A DNA stretch of 64,000 nucleotides from an uncultured Candidatus Saccharibacteria bacterium (GCA_964386905.1 CAYLUP010000001.1:19905-83904), one strand, 5' to 3'; shown: positions 13,135 through 41,272, counted from the first letter of the stretch. Made by a program: numbers and translations. Notes: generated by a model not told the origin, from the letters alone.

Positions 13135-13142
13135 TTATTCCA

Positions 13143-13215
13143 GTAAGTAGTAAGTAGTAAGTAGGCTCATGTATGTTGAGTATATTACTTACTACTTTAT
13201 ACTTACTTTTATTTT
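13143..13215 (+). terminator. Long hairpin built from AGTAAGT heptamer repeats, followed by a U-run directly abutting the lysS ATG.
   Basis: AGTAAGTAGTAAGTAGTAAGTAG ... ACTTACTACTTTATACTTACT, about 21 bp stem, then TTTTATTTTATT. Confidence 0.6.
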
Positions 13216-13218
13216 ATT

Positions 13219-14682
13219 ATGGCTTCATTAGAAGAAATCCGCTCCGAGCGAATCAAAAAGCACGATGCTCTTCGAGCAAGAGGTGTGAACCCATACCCAT
13301 CTCGTGTACCACGAACGCATGCGCTTCGCGTTGTGCGTGAACAGTTTGTCTCGCTTGAAAAAGAATCGCATGTAATTTCTTGTGTTGGGCGCGTGATGGC
13401 AATCCGCGGTCAGGGAGCGATTCAGTTTATTGTATTAAATGATGGGACTGCTGAGTTGCAGGCCGTGCTTAAGCGTGACGAAATTGGGGAAGAGCAGATG
13501 GGGTTTTTTGGCGAGGTTGTTGATATGGGGGACTTTGTTTCTGTCACAGGAGTTCCATTTACGACTCAGCGTGGAGAGATGAGTATTCTCGTTCAGTCGT
13601 GGGTTATGGCCTCAAAATCCTTATTGCCTCTCCCTGATAAATGGGCTGGTCTTCAAGATGAGGAAGAGAAGATGCGCAAGCGCTATCTCGATATCCTGAC
13701 GAATCCGGATTTGAAAGAGTTGTTTATTAAGAAGGCAAAGTTCTGGCAGGCGATGCGAACCTTCTTGATGCAAGAAGGATTTCTTGAAGTTGAAACTCCT
13801 GTTCTTGAAGTGACGACAGGCGGTGCTGATGCACGTCCATTTGCCTCACATCATTGGGCTCTCGATATTCCCGTATTTAATCGTATTTCTTGCGGTGAGC
13901 TTTGGCAAAAGCGCCTTATGGTTGCTGGATATCCTAAAACATTCGAGATTGGACGTATATTTCGCAATGAAGGAATGAGTCCTGAGCACGCACAAGACTA
14001 CACGCAAATGGAGTGCTATGCTGCGTGGGAAAATTTTGAAGAAGGGATGGATTTTGTTGAGCGGCTGTATAAATATGTCGCATTTGAGGCATTTGGTAAA
14101 ACAGAATTTGAAATTCGAGGTTTTCATATCGACCTTGGAAAGAAGTGGGAGCGATATGACTACGCAGAGAAGATCAAAGAGATGACTGGTATTGATATCA
14201 CTTCAGCAACCCAGAAAGAACTTGACGCAAAGCTTCATGAACTAAAAATAAAGTTTGATCCAAAAGGTTGGAATCGCATGCGCGCGATAGATAACTTGTG
14301 GAAATGGTGTCGTAAGCAGATTGCCGGGCCAGGATTTCTTATTAACGCTCCTGTTGAGATGGCACCGCTGGCGAAGGTGGCAAAAGATGGTAAGACTGTC
14401 GAGATGTACCAGCCAATTATTGCGGGTTCTGAAGTGGGAAGGGGATACAGTGAGTTAAACGATCCGCTTGACCAAAGACGTCGTTTTGAAGAACAGCAAG
14501 CCATGCGTGATGCCGGAGACGAAGAAGCACAGATGGCAGATTGGGAATTTGTTGAAGCGCTTGAGCATGGAATGCCGCCAACGTCAGGATTTGGTGTGTC
14601 AGAAAGACTGTTTTCGTTCTTGGCAAATATGCCTATTCGAGAAGCACAACTTTTCCCACTCGTAAAACCCAAAGGGGAATAA
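13219..14682 (+). CDS. lysS: Lysine--tRNA ligase, class II.
   Basis: N-terminal OB anticodon-binding domain. Class II motifs (FRNEG, GGADARPF, ELNDP). 487 aa. Confidence 0.93.
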   Translation: MASLEEIRSERIKKHDALRARGVNPYPSRVPRTHALRVVREQFVSLEKESHVISCVGRVMAIRGQGAIQFIVLNDGTAELQAVLKRDEIGEEQMGFFGEVVDMGDFVSVTGVPFTTQRGEMSILVQSWVMASKSLLPLPDKWAGLQDEEEKMRKRYLDILTNPDLKELFIKKAKFWQAMRTFLMQEGFLEVETPVLEVTTGGADARPFASHHWALDIPVFNRISCGELWQKRLMVAGYPKTFEIGRIFRNEGMSPEHAQDYTQMECYAAWENFEEGMDFVERLYKYVAFEAFGKTEFEIRGFHIDLGKKWERYDYAEKIKEMTGIDITSATQKELDAKLHELKIKFDPKGWNRMRAIDNLWKWCRKQIAGPGFLINAPVEMAPLAKVAKDGKTVEMYQPIIAGSEVGRGYSELNDPLDQRRRFEEQQAMRDAGDEEAQMADWEFVEALEHGMPPTSGFGVSERLFSFLANMPIREAQLFPLVKPKGE

Positions 14683-14705: not shown

Positions 14706-14911
14706 TTATTGTGCTTTGCTTCGAGCTTTACTGGCCATCCGAGCATAAAAGATTCCCAGGAAGGGGAGTTTTTTGATGAAGACAATATTACTCACGACTA
14801 AAGACTCATACCTCATGACTGATACGGGAAATTATTTCGCGACGTTATTTTCATGGCCAAATATGGCCGTCATACGGAAGTGGGGCATGTGGATAACTTT
14901 TTTGTTGCATA

Positions 14912-14957
14912 ATGGGGGAGAGTGGGATAAAATGGGAACATGTGGGAGAAAGTGGGA
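14912..14957 (+). promoter_or_regulatory. Array of five TGGGR direct repeats with exact 10 bp periodicity. Putative MraZ-box operator upstream of mraZ.
   Basis: ATGGGGgag aGTGGGAtaaa ATGGGAacat GTGGGAgaaa GTGGGAagc. Repeat starts fall near 14912, 14922, 14932, 14942 and 14952. Confidence 0.45.
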
Positions 14958-15257
14958 AGCCTGAGGAACAAATCATCAGCCACACTGCATGTCGCACGGA
15001 TAAAACGATATCGAAAGGTATGTGGGTACCGATCGATGTCGTCCGAGCGACACCTTGGTGTTGGTGTGTCATCTGCTGGTGTATGACACATCAACATCAG
15101 GGTGCCGCTTCGACAATTATTTTTCGCGCCTCTTCCGCTGTTTCGATATACAACTCACTCGATGTACTCCGAGTACATCTCGCTAGAGTTTGTATATCTC
15201 CAACAGCGGAATATGCATCGAAAAAGAATTGCCGATTACGCAATCCAATATTCAATT

Positions 15258-34170: not shown

Positions 34171-34382
34171 ATAAAGTATCTTGGCATATGACACGACCCC
34201 AATCAATGTGTATAACTGTGGATAGTCCACACGTATTTAAGCCCTATATTTCAGTTTTCCACAGTATTGACGAATGGAAGATTGTGTACGGACTTCCACA
34301 TGTCGGTATTGTGTGTTCGGTAATTCATCCTGATGAATATCCACACCACTTGAGTACGTGCGTATGTGGTACAATCGACCCC

Positions 34383-35273
34383 ATGGCAAAGAATACCGTG
34401 CTCATTGCAAAGACAGGGAAGACAACGTATCTTCCGCTTACAGATAAAGAGGAAGATATCGCGCTATTGCTCAGAAAAGTAAAAGCTCCACAATTGAAGG
34501 AGGGTTCTACGAAGTCATTTGACGCGAAGGCGGGCAGTCTCGTTGGGGAAGAGTGGTTCGGAATTGATCTTATTGGTGATGATTTACAGATTATTGCTCC
34601 GTATGTCGATGCTGCGTGTACAAAAATTGACCCCGAGCGTATTGCAAGTGTGGATATGTCTGCAATCAAAGCATTGGCTATTGTTGAAACAACGGGATTG
34701 CCTAGAGAGACTACTATCCATGTCATAAAGACGTCATCTACGCAACGATACGACAGAAAAACTCTTATTGAGTTCGGCGTTCACGGTGTAACGATTGAGG
34801 AACGAACCCATGGTGTGGAGGTTGGTGGAGTGCTGCATGCATATGTTCATCATGGAAAATTGTATTTTCAGAATTTTAATACAGCATCCTCACTCTTCTT
34901 CGGAATTGACAAGTTCTTTCGTGAAGCGACCGACGAAGAGGTGAATGAATTTTGTGGTCTACCACTCTTTCTCCTTGGCGAAGAGTTTGATGCAAATCTG
35001 ATTGGAAAGCGACAGCGGAAGCAAATTGCTCTTTCGCTTCCGTTGATGCCAGACCTACAAAATGATCACATTCGTAAGCAATTGACTGAGTATGCAAAGG
35101 ATTATCTCCCTTTACAAGAAGGTGAACGTATTATTCAAGGAGAGCATTTTGCTTTAAATTCTCCTTCAGATCTTGCATATATTTTTCATATTCTGTATGG
35201 AGACTATTTTACGAACGTAATTACTGGTGAAAAGATGATTGCAAAGAGAAGTGAGAAGTTGGTGGGAAAGTAG
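34383..35273 (+). CDS. Hypothetical protein.
   Basis: Coding-like ORF divergent from dnaB. Start moved to MAKNTVLIAK to leave a 212 bp divergent promoter region. No domain recognised. Confidence 0.5.
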   Translation: MAKNTVLIAKTGKTTYLPLTDKEEDIALLLRKVKAPQLKEGSTKSFDAKAGSLVGEEWFGIDLIGDDLQIIAPYVDAACTKIDPERIASVDMSAIKALAIVETTGLPRETTIHVIKTSSTQRYDRKTLIEFGVHGVTIEERTHGVEVGGVLHAYVHHGKLYFQNFNTASSLFFGIDKFFREATDEEVNEFCGLPLFLLGEEFDANLIGKRQRKQIALSLPLMPDLQNDHIRKQLTEYAKDYLPLQEGERIIQGEHFALNSPSDLAYIFHILYGDYFTNVITGEKMIAKRSEKLVGK

Positions 35274-35319
35274 AGGGGTGTAGTGATTAGTGAACAGTGA
35301 TAAGTGAATAGAAGAATGC

Positions 35320-35535
35320 AGTGGTTGGTGGGTAGTGGATAGGAAGAAGAGAATAGAGGATAGACAATGGTAAGAAAAGTTTCTCGTTGCAAGTTCCAAG
35401 TTGGACACAAATGCATTGTCATTGCGAAGACGACCTGTACCCGGGTCGTCTGTGGCAATCCAGGACTGCATTTTGTATTACCTTGAACTAAAACTATTTG
35501 GCAATCTAGGACTGTATCTGTCTATCTCTGTAGCT
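35320..35535 (+). repeat. Copy 1 of a repeated structured element, immediately upstream of rplU. A purine-rich GTGGNNN heptamer and GAGAATAGAGGATAGACA block forms its left end. A conserved 57 nt core lies in the middle. An inverted pyrimidine-rich copy of the end motif (CTGTCTATCTCT) forms its right end.
   Basis: About 85-90% identity to 40643..40790. Core AATGCATTGTCATTGCGAAGACGACCTGTACCCGGGTCGTCTGTGGCAATCCAGGAC with internal hairpin GACGACC/GGTCGTC. TTGGCAATCYAGGACT occurs twice. Confidence 0.6.
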
Positions 35536-35610
35536 CAAAACTCATTTCTCATGACTCATATTCCCGTACTTTCTTGCTTTTTTCGCAAAATACGGTATAC
35601 TAACCCCACT

Positions 35611-35916
35611 ATGACATTCGCAGTTATTACCACGGGTGGCAAGCAATATAAGGTTGCAGTAGGTGATGTTCTCAGTGTTGAGAAGCTCGACGCAGAGGGT
35701 TCAGTTACGTTTGACAAGGTATTGCTTGTGGACGACGGTTCTTCAACGAAAGTTGGTACACCGTTTGTCGCAGGTGCACAGGTTACCGCAGACATCGTTG
35801 AGCACGGCAAGGGTCCTAAGATCTATGTCGTTCGCTACATGCCAAAGAGCCGCTGGGCAAAGAAAAACGGTCACCGACAGCCATTTACAAAGATCAAAAT
35901 CACTGGAATCAAATAA
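35611..35916 (+). CDS. rplU: 50S ribosomal protein L21.
   Basis: MTFAVITTGGKQYKVAVGDVL... Candidate promoter TTGCTT-N16-TATACT lies 8-40 nt upstream of the ATG. Confidence 0.9.
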   Translation: MTFAVITTGGKQYKVAVGDVLSVEKLDAEGSVTFDKVLLVDDGSSTKVGTPFVAGAQVTADIVEHGKGPKIYVVRYMPKSRWAKKNGHRQPFTKIKITGIK

Positions 35917-39864: not shown

Positions 39865-40386
39865 TTATAATTGCTCTGTGACAGCGTACTTTCTCTGAAG
39901 TCCAATTTTGACTCCTCGGCGTCGCGCTTTCTCAACGAGCAGTTCGGTAGATACGCTATTATTGACCTGAAAAGCGTACACCTCTCCAACCGCACCAATC
40001 TGCCGAATGCGATTTGCAGTATACATTTCTTCTGAAACTTCATCGCCTGATGGAAGTTCAAAGAAATGTTCTGGACGCACCTTCTTTAATACCCTCAAGG
40101 CGCCTTCGAGATTATCTATCTCCTTTTTCGTCACAGGAGGGACACAAAGGTGCTTGCGATAGTAACGAATGTAGCTCTCGAGACCTGCGGGGATATAGAC
40201 TTTGACATGACCTCCAGTTGGGTCATAGCGTAACGCTTCTGTGAGCGCATAATAGTCGACTCCCGTGGAACCACCAGTCACTATACCATCGCCACGAATC
40301 AGTGCGCGGCGGACTTGAGCGCGAACATCTGCTTCGACGTTTACCGTCTTCAGCCGCCACGCTCCCGTGAACAGTATCCATTTCAT
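39865..40386 (-). CDS. SLOG/DUF2493-like Rossmann-fold protein. Paralog B.
   Basis: MKWILFTGAWR...GIVTGGSTGVDYYALTEALR. Clear paralogy to 39303..39809 through the first ~100 aa. Confidence 0.55.
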   Translation of the reverse strand: MKWILFTGAWRLKTVNVEADVRAQVRRALIRGDGIVTGGSTGVDYYALTEALRYDPTGGHVKVYIPAGLESYIRYYRKHLCVPPVTKKEIDNLEGALRVLKKVRPEHFFELPSGDEVSEEMYTANRIRQIGAVGEVYAFQVNNSVSTELLVEKARRRGVKIGLQRKYAVTEQL

Positions 40387-40642
40387 AAGTCTGCTTGTTA
40401 AACTACTAATGTGTGTTACTTGTAATTCTATATTTATTACACCTGATAGTGCGTATTCTTTCAATCACAGTGCGTCCACTTCGGAGCATGTGGATAATTA
40501 TTGGGTTGCTGGTGACGAAGGAAAGGGGATATTTTGAAGAAAAAAATAAAATCTTCGTGCATTATGCACAGACCTGTGGATAACTCGCGTGACAGTGTCG
40601 AATAGTGTGTATAGAGAATTTAGGGGGATGAAATGAATACTA

Positions 40643-40993
40643 GTGGAGAGTGGATGGTGGATGGTGGATAGGAAGAAGAGAATGGGGGATAGGGGATAGA
40701 GAATGGTAAGAAAAGTTTCTAGTTGAAAGAAAATGCATTGTCATTGTGAAGACGACCTGTACTCGGGTCGTCTGTGGCAATCCAGGACGATGTTGGTATT
40801 TCGTATGAACTAAAACTAAAACTCATACTAAAACTACTCTTGGCAATCCAGGACTCTATTGGCGTAATCATCTACTGGCTTTTCCGCCTGCAATGTGCTA
40901 TAAATGTATGGCTCGAAAGAGTAAAAAGCGAATAGCGAATAGCGAATAGAGTTTGTTGCATTTTCTATTCTCTATCCTCAATTCTCCATTCTC
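40643..40993 (+). repeat. Copy 2 of the repeated structured element, upstream of tRNA-Gln. Its left end is purine-rich (GTGGAGA GTGGATG GTGGATG GTGGATAGG...GAGAATGGGGGATAGGGGATAGAGAATGG). Its right end (CTATTCTCTATCCTCAATTCTCCATTCTC) is an imperfect inverted copy.
   Basis: Shares the 57 nt core (2 mismatches) and the duplicated TTGGCAATCCAGGACT with copy 1. The terminal inverted repeats are about 30 bp with roughly 75% complementarity. A GCGAATA x3 heptamer array lies inside. Confidence 0.6.
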
Positions 40994-40995
40994 AA

Positions 40996-41040
40996 AATTC
41001 ATTACCAGATCGTCTAAAGGTAAGAATGGCCTTTCAGGCA
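40996..41040 (+). repeat. Partial degenerate duplicate of the tRNA-Gln 5' half.
   Basis: AATTCATTACCAGATCGTCTAAAGGTA (27 nt) is identical to 41190..41216, then diverges (AGAATGGCCTTTCAGGCAC versus GGACAGAGGCCTTTGAAGCC). Confidence 0.6.
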
Positions 41041-41196
41041 CCAGGCATTCTTGCCCGAAAATGTCTCGCCACCGCGAGCCAGTTCAACTCGAGCAATCAC
41101 TGCGTTCTTGCTCTTACGGGTAGGAAAGAGGCAAGCCTCTGTCTGTCGTTTGTGTGTTGTGCTGTGTGGGGAATATTGTTCGAAAATATAATTCAT

Positions 41197-41267
41197 TACC
41201 AGATCGTCTAAAGGTAGGACAGAGGCCTTTGAAGCCTTTAATCTAGGTTCGATTCCTAGTCTGGTAA
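41197..41267 (+). tRNA. tRNA-Gln, anticodon TTG.
   Basis: Acceptor TACCAGA/TCTGGTA. Anticodon arm GAGGC-CTTTGAA-GCCTT. T-arm CTAGG-TTCGATT-CCTAG. CCA not encoded. Confidence 0.85.
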
Positions 41268-41272
41268 CAAAT

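What the first reader, a model, noticed from the sequence alone, without database searches (positions are those of the whole stretch)
35320..35535. Two-copy structured repeat element (MITE-like or sRNA-like) sitting upstream of rplU and of tRNA-Gln
Positions 35320-35535 and 40643-40993 share about 190 bp at roughly 85-90% identity. The shared part includes a nearly invariant 57 nt core, AATGCATTGTCATTG(C/T)GAAGACGACCTGTAC(C/T)CGGGTCGTCTGTGGCAATCCAGGAC, with an internal 7 bp hairpin. Each copy has two copies of TTGGCAATCYAGGACT flanking AAAACT-rich spacers. Each copy is bounded by a purine-rich block (GAGAATAGAGGATAGACA-like, preceded by GTGGNNN heptamer arrays) and by an inverted pyrimidine-rich copy of that block. 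This gives TIR-like ends. Both copies lie immediately 5' of highly expressed genes on the same strand. This is compatible with several explanations. It could be a miniature inverted-repeat mobile element. It could be a conserved structured leader, promoter or UP module for translation-apparatus genes. It could be a small RNA gene.
Basis: seen in the sequence. Interest (0 to 1): 0.58.

Follow-up and report, generated by a model that had tools for sequence, protein, structure and literature searches.

The report
Two-copy intergenic hairpin repeat, species-private
Two non-coding stretches 5.3 kb apart in an uncultured Patescibacteria-like bacterium are real copies of one ~195-base hairpin-forming cassette set beside arrays of 7-base repeats; it looks like an ordinary small intergenic repeat, not a regulator of the ribosomal-protein or tRNA gene next to it.

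Summary
The repeat is real. Copy A (35320-35513) and copy B (40649-40855) align over about 177 nt at about 85% identity. They share a 57-nt core with 55/57 identical bases and two TGGCAATCYAGGAC boxes per copy. No third copy is in the window, and none turned up in the genome, metagenome, viral, phage or plasmid collections. There is no Rfam match, and the ORFs that cross the core do not look coding. The core folds into a roughly 20-bp hairpin that is stable on the + strand (z -4.5 and -4.9). TIR-like arms are strong only in copy B (32 nt, 81%); in copy A they are a 12-nt gapped match. No target-site duplication was seen.

The rplU promoter (CTTGCnT, 16-17 nt, TATAYT, 9 nt, ATG) is conserved in seven relatives and lies downstream of copy A, so A is not an rplU leader. 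Copy B lies about 340 nt upstream of tRNA-Gln, behind a decayed tRNA-Gln duplicate.

In a related organism the same two loci keep the heptamer arrays. They carry a different interior, and that interior is again shared between the two loci.

Best reading (confidence about 0.4): a lineage-private foldback cassette copied between two heptamer-array loci by recombination, acting at most as a structural RNA hairpin. The MITE and small-RNA readings remain possible. Interest is low to moderate.

The parts
35320..35513 (+). Copy A of the shared cassette: end of the GTGG-type heptamer array, purine block, spacer, core hairpin, A-rich spacer and box 2.
   Evidence: Local alignment to copy B, blastn and MAFFT. 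An independent Logan contig, L001, carries the identical sequence.
40649..40855 (+). Copy B of the shared cassette.
35410..35466 (+). 57-nt core of copy A. The apical helix AGACGACCUG/CGGGUCGUCU stacks on a lower helix that pairs GCAUUGUCAU with box 1.
   Evidence: exact match.: -31.6 kcal/mol, z -4.5 on the + strand, against -28.4 on the - strand; 20 consensus pairs.
40732..40788 (+). 57-nt core of copy B. It differs from A by a C>U change that keeps a pair as U.G on the + strand, and by a C>U change in the loop.
   Evidence: -32.5 kcal/mol, z -4.9 on the + strand, against -17.3, z -1.8 on the - strand.
35499..35512 (+). Box 2 of copy A (TGGCAATCTAGGAC). Box 1 is at 35453-35466, inside the core.
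40841..40854 (+). Box 2 of copy B (TGGCAATCCAGGAC). Box 1 is at 40775-40788, inside the core.
35281..35375 (+). Degenerate purine-rich heptamer array (AGTGAWW / GTGGNNN / AGAGGAT) that starts right after the stop codon of the KwaB-like gene.
   Evidence: TRF and direct reading. Homology to the relative L002 runs in from the left up to window position 35324.
40644..40710 (+). Heptamer array of copy B (GTGGAGA, GTGGATG x2, GTGGATA, then GAGAATG / GGGGATA units). Positions 40678-40709 form the left arm of the long stem.
   Evidence: TRF. Homology to the relative L009 runs in from the left up to 40671. Inverted repeat I1/I2.
40959..40993 (+). Pyrimidine-rich inverted heptamer array (CATTCTC-type x5), the right arm of the copy B stem. 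It is preceded by AGCGAAT x3.3 at 40927-40949.
   Evidence: Folding of 40630-41000 gives z -6.8. The arms have 27 Watson-Crick pairs plus 6 G.U on the + strand, against 2 A.C.
35519..35529 (+). Weak inverted partner (TGTCTATCTCT) of AGAG(G)ATAGACA at 35355-35366, the supposed right TIR of copy A.
   Evidence: Direct reading. It is not reported by the gapless inverted-repeat search, and only 13 of 29 positions pair ungapped.
35574..35601 (+). rplU promoter-like site: TTGCTT, 16 nt, TATACT, ending 9 nt before the ATG at 35611. It lies downstream of copy A.
   Evidence: Conserved in 7 loci.
40489..40583 (+). Conserved upstream region of copy B. It holds two perfect DnaA-box 9-mers (TGTGGATAA at 40489 and 40575), one near-perfect box (40562) and a promoter-like TTGCTG, 18 nt, TATTTT (40506-40535) that points into the element.
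   Evidence: About 88% conserved in the relative L009.
40996..41143 (+). Decayed duplicate of tRNA-Gln between copy B and the real tRNA-Gln (41197-41268). Positions 40996-41022 are identical to 41190-41216. After an insert of about 95 nt, GGTAGGAAAGAGGC matches the tRNA's GGTAGGACAGAGGC.
   Evidence: (D7); tRNA.

Best explanation
The two regions are copies of one non-coding cassette of about 195 nt that is private to this organism. Each copy sits just to the right of a purine-rich array of 7-nt repeats (AGnnnAT-type). That array is older than the cassette and is shared with a related organism at both loci.

The most likely route to identical cassettes at both loci is copying of one locus onto the other. 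This would be ectopic recombination or gene conversion seeded in the similar heptamer arrays, not cut-and-paste transposition.

On the + strand the cassette RNA folds into a hairpin of about 20 bp. In copy B, and in relatives, the heptamer array pairs with an inverted array to make a stem of 30-40 bp.

Its most likely role is passive and structural. It would be a stable hairpin in transcripts that run through it, able to block exonucleases or offer an RNase III-type processing site, and so insulate neighbouring units. For copy A the transcript would be read-through from the KwaB-like gene. For copy B it would start at the DnaA-box-flanked promoter and head towards tRNA-Gln. The cassette is not a regulator of rplU.

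Shown here: the repeat, the hairpins, their + strand bias, the promoter position, and the species-specific interiors at both loci. Inferred: transcription through the element, the copying mechanism, and the role.
For: - The repeat is real and exists in two copies.
- The + strand folds better than the - strand. For the core, copy B gives -32.5 against -17.3 kcal/mol and copy A -31.6 against -28.4. The same holds for all 7 array foldbacks tested, in the window and in relatives.
- In the three good long stems, mismatches are G.U on the + strand 10 times and A.C twice.
- Homology to the relative runs in from the left and stops inside the heptamer array at both loci, at window 35324 (locus A) and 40671 (locus B). 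At locus A it resumes only at the rplU promoter, at 35572.
- The relative's two interiors (L002 and L009) share about 96 nt with each other (score 59 against null 17.6 +/- 2.4). They share nothing significant with the window cassette (z about 0.5).
- Foldbacks of heptamer array plus inverted array with unrelated heptamers occur at 13142-13207 in the window and in L003/L012, where a canonical terminator with compensatory changes sits inside the foldback.
- More distant relatives have short intergenic regions with ordinary terminators and no cassette.
- No target-site duplication is seen, and the right ends of the two copies are non-homologous.
Against: - There are no expression data, so transcription through the element is only inferred.
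- Only 64 kb of the genome could be searched, so the true copy number is unknown.
- L002 and L009 come from the same metagenome and are 80-89% identical in DNA to the window. That they belong to one genome is not proven.
- Copy A as a whole folds no better than shuffled sequence (z -1.1).
- The core (96.5% identical) is better conserved than its flanks (about 80%). This could reflect a sequence-specific function rather than recent copying.
- The G.U excess on the + strand could partly reflect C>T mutation bias on the G-rich strand (skew).
Confidence: 0.4

Rival explanations
1. [quoted passage not shown] A transposase encoded elsewhere would move it, it would prefer heptamer-array hairpins as targets, and each species would carry its own element family.
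For: It is 200-350 nt long and non-coding. Copy B has 32-nt inverted arms. The interiors at both loci were replaced between species while the flanks stayed 80-89% identical, which looks like insertion or replacement rather than point divergence.
Against: No target-site duplication is seen. Copy A's arms are a 12-nt gapped match. The right termini of A and B are not homologous. Only 2 copies exist in 64 kb. There were no hits in GTDB representative genomes, JGI metagenomes or IMG/VR, nor among called ORFs in 5.8 billion proteins. No transposase gene was noticed near either copy.
Confidence: 0.15
2. It is a small RNA, either independent or derived from a UTR. The roughly 65-nt hairpin and two single-stranded YCYAGGAC boxes would be the functional part. 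One possibility is a sponge for an RNA-binding protein that recognises GGA motifs; another is a base-pairing RNA.
For: The + strand hairpin is strongly stable (z -4.5 and -4.9), and the substitutions in copy B are tolerated as G.U only on the + strand. The core is more conserved than its flanks. Copy B lies downstream of a conserved promoter-like site flanked by DnaA boxes. CCAGGA also recurs three times in the otherwise unrelated interior of the relative (read; not statistically supported).
Against: There is no Rfam match even at E<=10. No intrinsic terminator follows either copy, and no promoter lies directly upstream of copy A. All 20 consensus pairs are invariant, so there is no covariation evidence. 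The sequence is not conserved even in a relative at 80-89% DNA identity. That would be unusual for a functional small RNA unless only the shape matters.
Confidence: 0.2
3. It is a cis-acting leader, promoter or UP module that co-regulates translation-apparatus genes (rplU and tRNA-Gln).
For: Both copies lie upstream of, and on the same strand as, rplU and tRNA-Gln. Copy B could be part of a long leader of a tRNA-Gln precursor started at 40506-40535.
Against: The conserved rplU promoter lies downstream of copy A and ends 9 nt before the ATG, so the mRNA is nearly leaderless. Relatives keep the promoter without the element. The distance from box 2 to the gene differs greatly between copies (about 100 nt against about 340 nt). 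The relative's B-type locus has no tRNA nearby. There is no match to the L21 leader or any other Rfam r-protein leader.
Confidence: 0.07
4. It is a protein-binding site at the DNA level. The GTGGAT(A/G) heptamers carry the core of the DnaA box and could act as iteron-like or DnaA-titrating arrays, with the cassette as an adjacent AT-rich or structured region.
For: The heptamers contain GTGGATA, the central 7 bases of the DnaA box TGTGGATAA. Two perfect boxes and one near-perfect box lie 65-160 nt upstream of copy B and are conserved in the relative. Perfect boxes are enriched in the window: 7 perfect 9-mers found, against about 0.5 expected from my own calculation of 9-mer frequency on both strands of 64 kb.
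Against: GC skew stays positive across the whole window, so this is not the chromosomal origin. Arrays at the equivalent loci in relatives use heptamers unlike DnaA boxes, namely AGAGAAT and GGGAATA. The 7-bp spacing would make adjacent sites overlap. The + strand G.U bias points to RNA rather than duplex DNA.
Confidence: 0.08

Closest known systems
Bacterial MITEs such as the Correia/NEMIS elements of Neisseria
   Same: They are short, non-coding, intergenic and bounded by inverted repeats. They can fold into long hairpins in transcripts, and they sit next to promoters.
   Different: No target-site duplication is seen here. The inverted arms are built of tandem heptamers and are strong in one copy only. 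The right ends of the two copies are not homologous. Only two copies are seen.
BOX elements of Streptococcus pneumoniae and ERIC/IRU elements of enterobacteria (from my own knowledge)
   Same: They are modular or mosaic intergenic repeats with no coding capacity. They form stable stem-loops in RNA and lack a clear transposition signature.
   Different: There is no sequence similarity. Those families have tens to hundreds of copies per genome; here two are seen in 64 kb. Heptamer arrays are not part of BOX or ERIC.
REP/BIME elements (from my own knowledge)
   Same: They are intergenic hairpins downstream of genes. They are thought to stabilise upstream mRNA or insulate transcription units, which is the role proposed here.
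   Different: REPs are palindromes of about 35 nt present in hundreds of copies and linked to RAYT transposases. This cassette is about 195 nt, with a 57-nt core and repeated boxes.
Intergenic tandem heptamer repeats: TAACTGA repeats of Beggiatoaceae, Cyanobacteria and Bacteroidetes (PMC4679880), and cyanobacterial STRR heptamers (STRR from my own knowledge)
   Same: They are tandem 7-nt repeats confined to intergenic regions, near genes that include ribosomal-protein genes, with function unknown.
   Different: Here the heptamers differ from locus to locus (AGTGGAT, AGAGAAT, GGGAATA, AGTAAGT, AGCGAAT). Each array is matched by an inverted complementary array, giving a foldback. TAACTGA repeats are one fixed heptamer, almost always direct, and mostly just upstream of start codons.
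Ribosomal protein L21 leader (Rfam RF00559; accession and name from my own knowledge, the family did not appear in any tool output)
   Same: It lies upstream of rplU.
   Different: No ribosomal-protein leader family, the L21 leader included, appeared among the Rfam matches, at gathering score or at E<=10. The element lies upstream of the rplU promoter and not in a 5' UTR.

Membership tests
MITE | Terminal inverted repeats at both ends, conserved among copies. | tested here: not met
   Copy B has 32-nt arms at 81% complementarity. Copy A has only a gapped 12-nt match, with 13 of 29 positions pairing ungapped. The right ends of A and B are not homologous.
MITE | Target-site duplication flanking each copy. 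| tested here: not met
   The sequences flanking the arms are GGAAGAA|GAGAAT... and ...CTC|AAAAYTCATT in both copies. No direct duplication is present.
MITE | Multiple dispersed copies in the genome, with presence/absence polymorphism (empty sites). | tested here: inconclusive
   There are 2 copies in 64 kb, and the rest of the genome could not be reached. Orthologous sites in the nearest relative are filled by a different interior. More distant relatives have short intergenic regions.
MITE | Small size and no coding capacity. | tested here: met
   The shared unit is about 195 nt. In the minus-strand ORF through the core both core substitutions change the amino acid (G>S, R>H), and that ORF stops early in copy B. 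A 26-codon + strand ORF that I read from the sequence diverges in its second half. A search with six-frame peptides found nothing.
Known structured RNA family (Rfam 15, including the L21 leader and tRNA-like RNAs) | Match to a covariance model. | tested here: not met
   At gathering score only the two tRNAs match. At E<=10 only chance-level hits appear.
Structured non-coding RNA (generic) | Secondary structure supported by compensatory base changes. | tested here: inconclusive
   All 20 consensus pairs are invariant between the two copies. One C>U change keeps a pair as G.U on the + strand only, and the outer helix is rebuilt with a different 3' strand in copy B. Two sequences are too few to decide.
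Ribosomal-protein or tRNA 5' leader | Lies between the transcription start and the gene. | tested here: not met
   For rplU, the conserved promoter-like site lies downstream of the element and 9 nt from the ATG. For tRNA-Gln this cannot be decided without TSS data.
Chromosomal replication origin or DnaA-box cluster | GC-skew inversion at the site. | tested here: not met
   GC skew is positive in nearly all 2-kb bins (one bin at -0.003), and cumulative skew rises across the whole window without turning.
Intrinsic terminator | GC-rich hairpin followed by a U-run. | tested here: not met
   The core hairpin is followed by GUGGCAAUCC. No terminator-like site was found on the + strand in either element. 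Canonical terminators do exist elsewhere, for example after rplU and after tRNA-Gln.

The most novel reading that the evidence does not exclude
Heptamer-array foldbacks in this Patescibacteria-like lineage are exchange sites for short structured RNA cassettes, kept identical between two fixed loci within a species but replaced wholesale between species. The cassette (a 20-bp hairpin plus two YCYAGGAC boxes) would be a functional small RNA. At locus B it would be transcribed from a DnaA-box-controlled promoter. It might, for example, titrate a GGA-binding protein and so link the replication state to the translation apparatus.
Probability: 0.1. Interest if true: 0.6.

Novelty: new variant of a known kind. 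Interest (0 to 1): 0.3.

Why it matters
If the best reading is right, this is one more lineage-private intergenic repeat. Its value is mostly for annotation: it warns against calling it an rplU leader or a MITE. One aspect is less ordinary. Inverted arrays of locus-specific 7-nt repeats form foldbacks of 20-40 bp, and the interiors are the same at two loci within a species but different between species. That pattern points to frequent recombination seeded in simple repeats in very small genomes. RNA biology in such genomes is almost unexplored.

Tried and rejected
- Searches for further copies found nothing useful. I scanned GTDB representative genomes, JGI metagenomes with a two-box pattern and a 19-mer (the one hit is a chance match inside a coding region) and IMG/VR. 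I ran blastn against phages and plasmids (only a chance 48-nt Proteus hit). I also searched with concatenated six-frame peptides of the cassette, hoping to catch spuriously called ORFs over other copies (none).
- A protein-anchored scan of GTDB genomes returned only 2 loci.
- Coding potential is rejected. For the minus-strand ORF through the core, both core substitutions change the amino acid and copy B stops early. For the 26-codon + strand ORF MHCHCEDD..., read from the sequence, the second half is diverged and there is no ATG in the relative.
- Replication origin is rejected on GC skew.
- Homology between the window cassette and the relative's cassette is rejected. By eye I saw shared ATGCAYTTGTCAT, CCGGG and ATCCAGGA motifs, but the alignment score equals the shuffle null.
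- I considered a tRNA-derived origin for the box, which shares AATCTAGG with the tRNA-Gln T-arm. Neither ARAGORN nor the Rfam tRNA model supports it.
- I looked for a sigma-70-like promoter inside the cassette on either strand and found nothing convincing.
- G-quadruplex formation as the common role of the arrays is rejected, because the AGAGAAT and AGTAAGT arrays have no G-runs.
- Look-ups of contigs for the B locus in other samples failed.

Full report
**What is there**

The window carries two copies of a non-coding repeat on the + strand, 5.3 kb apart.
It gave 0 matches in 100 shuffles.
- The best local alignment joins A 35320-35496 to B 40649-40818, with score 191 against a shuffle null of 19.8 +/- 2.2.
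- A second TGGCAATCYAGGAC box follows in each copy. The shared unit is therefore about 195 nt: A 35320-35513 and B 40649-40855.
- Identity is 55/57 in the core and roughly 80-85% outside it.
- TRF confirms the heptamer arrays and the AACTAA-rich spacer.
- An independent Logan contig (L001) carries copy A with the same sequence.

**Corrections to the observation**

- The internal hairpin is larger than the 7 bp described. A 10-bp apical helix stacks on a lower helix of about 10 bp that pairs GCAUUGUCAU with box 1.
- The 'TIR-like ends' are real only for copy B, where 40678-40709 pairs with 40962-40993 (32 nt, 81%). Folding of 40630-41000 gives z -6.8.
- In copy A the supposed arms are a gapped 12-nt match (35355-35366 / 35519-35529). 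Only 13 of 29 positions pair without gaps, and the whole of copy A folds no better than shuffles (z -1.1).
- The right-hand arms of A and B are not homologous, and no target-site duplication is visible.
- Copy B has about 100 nt of private sequence (40856-40958) before its right arm.

**Context**

- The organism is an uncultured bacterium. Its only named relative among the fetched loci is a Candidatus Nomurabacteria MAG.
- Copy A lies between a lineage-specific gene (about 34218..35273, with only 18 homologues in 5.8 billion proteins) and rplU (35611..35916).
- A promoter-like CTTGCnT, 16-17 nt, TATAYT ends 9 nt before the rplU ATG and is conserved in seven orthologous loci, while the rest of the intergenic region is not. 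There is no Shine-Dalgarno sequence, so the rplU mRNA is probably nearly leaderless. Copy A is upstream of this promoter. This is an inference from conservation, not a mapped start site.
- Copy B lies in an intergenic region of about 800 nt. On its left is a DprA/SLOG-like gene on the minus strand (39865..40386). On its right is tRNA-Gln (41197-41268).
- Between copy B and the tRNA is a decayed duplicate of the tRNA's 5' part (40996-41022 is identical to 41190-41216).
- Upstream of copy B are two perfect DnaA-box 9-mers, one near-perfect box, and a promoter-like site that points into the element.

**What it is not**

- No Rfam family matches at gathering score or at E<=10.
- The ORFs that cross the core do not behave as coding, and their peptides find nothing in 5.8 billion proteins.
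- GC skew stays positive across the window apart from one bin at -0.003, so the DnaA boxes do not mark the origin.
- The core is absent from GTDB representative genomes, JGI metagenomes, IMG/VR, phages and plasmids.

**Comparative evidence**

This is the most informative part.

Orthologous intergenic regions between the lineage-specific gene and rplU were fetched from seven relatives.
- Four of them (L004, L006, L007, L011) have short regions of 115-135 nt with no cassette. One has an ordinary terminator; two have only a small G-rich hairpin.
- L003 and L012 have a G-rich heptamer array (GGGAATA / GGGTATA), then a canonical terminator with compensatory changes, then about 90 nt. An inverted C-rich array follows, pairing with the first over about 43 nt.
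- The nearest relative, from JGI sample 3300049860, is 80-89% identical in DNA to the window. It has AGAGAAT x5 and an inverted partner at the rplU locus (L002). It has AGTGGAT x6 at the locus orthologous to copy B (L009).

At both loci, homology to the window runs in from the left flank and stops inside the heptamer array, at window 35324 and 40671. At the rplU locus it resumes only at the promoter, at 35572.

The interiors are unrelated between the two organisms (z about 0.5). The relative's two interiors are homologous to each other over about 96 nt (score 59 against null 17.6 +/- 2.4).

So the same two loci carry a shared interior in each organism, and the interior differs between organisms. 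In the relative, the B-type locus is flanked by DprA-like paralogues on the opposite strand and has no tRNA.

**Strand and structure**

- As RNA, the + strand folds better than the - strand for the core. Copy B gives -32.5 against -17.3 kcal/mol and copy A -31.6 against -28.4.
- The same holds for all seven array foldbacks examined.
- In the three good long stems, the non-Watson-Crick positions are G.U on the + strand ten times and A.C twice.
- Between A and B, one core substitution turns C-G into U.G. The outer helix is rebuilt in copy B with a different 3' strand.
- With two sequences there is no compensatory change to count, because all 20 consensus pairs are invariant.
- This is modest evidence for an RNA-level hairpin read in the + direction. 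C>T bias on the G-rich strand could contribute to it.

**Interpretation**

The arrays are older than the cassette, the breakpoints lie in the arrays, the right ends differ, and there is no target-site duplication. Two loci are homogenised within each organism. I therefore favour copying of one locus onto the other by recombination seeded in the similar heptamer arrays (confidence about 0.4).

On this reading the cassette and the array stems act, at most, as stable hairpins in transcripts that cross them. That would mean protection of 3' ends, an RNase III-type processing site, or insulation.

The rivals are:
- a MITE with a preference for the arrays (0.15);
- a small RNA whose hairpin and two AGGA-containing boxes are the functional part (0.2);
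- a cis-regulatory module for rplU and tRNA-Gln (0.07);
- a DNA-level DnaA or iteron-like site (0.08).

None of the capped searches can still reach the rest of the genome, so the copy number is the main unknown.

**Comparison with known families**

The element behaves most like BOX/ERIC/REP-type intergenic hairpin repeats, or like a degenerate MITE. It fails the MITE tests that could be run here: conserved TIRs and target-site duplication. The arrays recall the intergenic heptamer repeats described for TAACTGA (PMC4679880) and the cyanobacterial STRR repeats (from my own knowledge). They differ in using locus-specific heptamers paired with an inverted array.

**Verdict**

This is a real, non-random repeat of an ordinary kind in an unusual setting. 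It is not a regulator of the adjacent translation genes as far as sequence can tell. Interest is 0.3.

Noticed in passing
window 34218-35273 (+): The 'hypothetical' gene upstream of copy A is a KwaB-like (DUF4868, Kiwa defence) protein. PADLOC KwaB models hit at E 4e-14. An AF2 model (pLDDT 67.5) hits KwaB structures 9mtn, 9mrx and 9nyu at E about 1e-6, but with TM only 0.35-0.40. There is no KwaA-like partner next to it. Instead it is conserved divergently from dnaB and upstream of rplU in all relatives fetched, and has only 18 homologues in 5.8 billion proteins.
   Followed up: partly
window 40996-41196: There is a decayed tandem duplicate of tRNA-Gln just upstream of the real gene. Its first 27 nt (7 nt of flank plus the first 20 nt of the tRNA) are identical to the real copy. 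An insert of about 95 nt follows where the D-loop would be, and then comes GGTAGGAAAGAGGC..GCCTCT, which resembles the D and anticodon stems. It suggests past rearrangement at this locus.
   Followed up: partly
window 14888, 25143, 26294, 29318, 40489, 40575, 60916; also 34207-34345: Perfect DnaA-box 9-mers (TGTGGATAA) occur 7 times in 64 kb, where my own calculation expects about 0.5, without any GC-skew inversion. At 14888 and 40489 the box sits directly upstream of a promoter-like TTGCAT/TTGCTG, 17-18 nt, TAAAAT/TATTTT, within a 27-nt similarity. Four one-mismatch boxes cluster in the divergent region between dnaB and the KwaB-like gene.
   Followed up: partly
window 13142-13207: A third heptamer foldback: AGTAAGT x3.3 paired with ACTTACT-type repeats (22 nt, 91%), followed by a U-rich run. 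I read a promoter-like TTGAGT, 16 nt, TATACT for the gene at 13219 in the loop and 3' arm.
   Followed up: partly
window 14900-15114: Downstream of the DnaA-box promoter at 14888 lie a G-rich decamer array (AGTGGGAAAA x3.8, 14921-14958) and a 32-nt inverted repeat (15041-15072 / 15083-15114, 81%) that overlaps the GTG start of the ORF at 15102. This may be a structured 5' UTR. There is no Rfam hit at gathering score.
   Followed up: no
window 35574-35613 and orthologous loci L002, L003, L004, L007, L011, L012: rplU appears to be transcribed as a nearly leaderless mRNA. The -10 element ends 9 nt before the ATG, there is no Shine-Dalgarno sequence, and the stretch (A/T/G)(A/T)CCCCACTATG is almost invariant across the clade.
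   Followed up: partly
L012 14057-16467: In one relative the region downstream of the conserved rplU-MFS-HIT block carries a large serine recombinase and a Rep-like gene, probably an integrated element.
   Followed up: no
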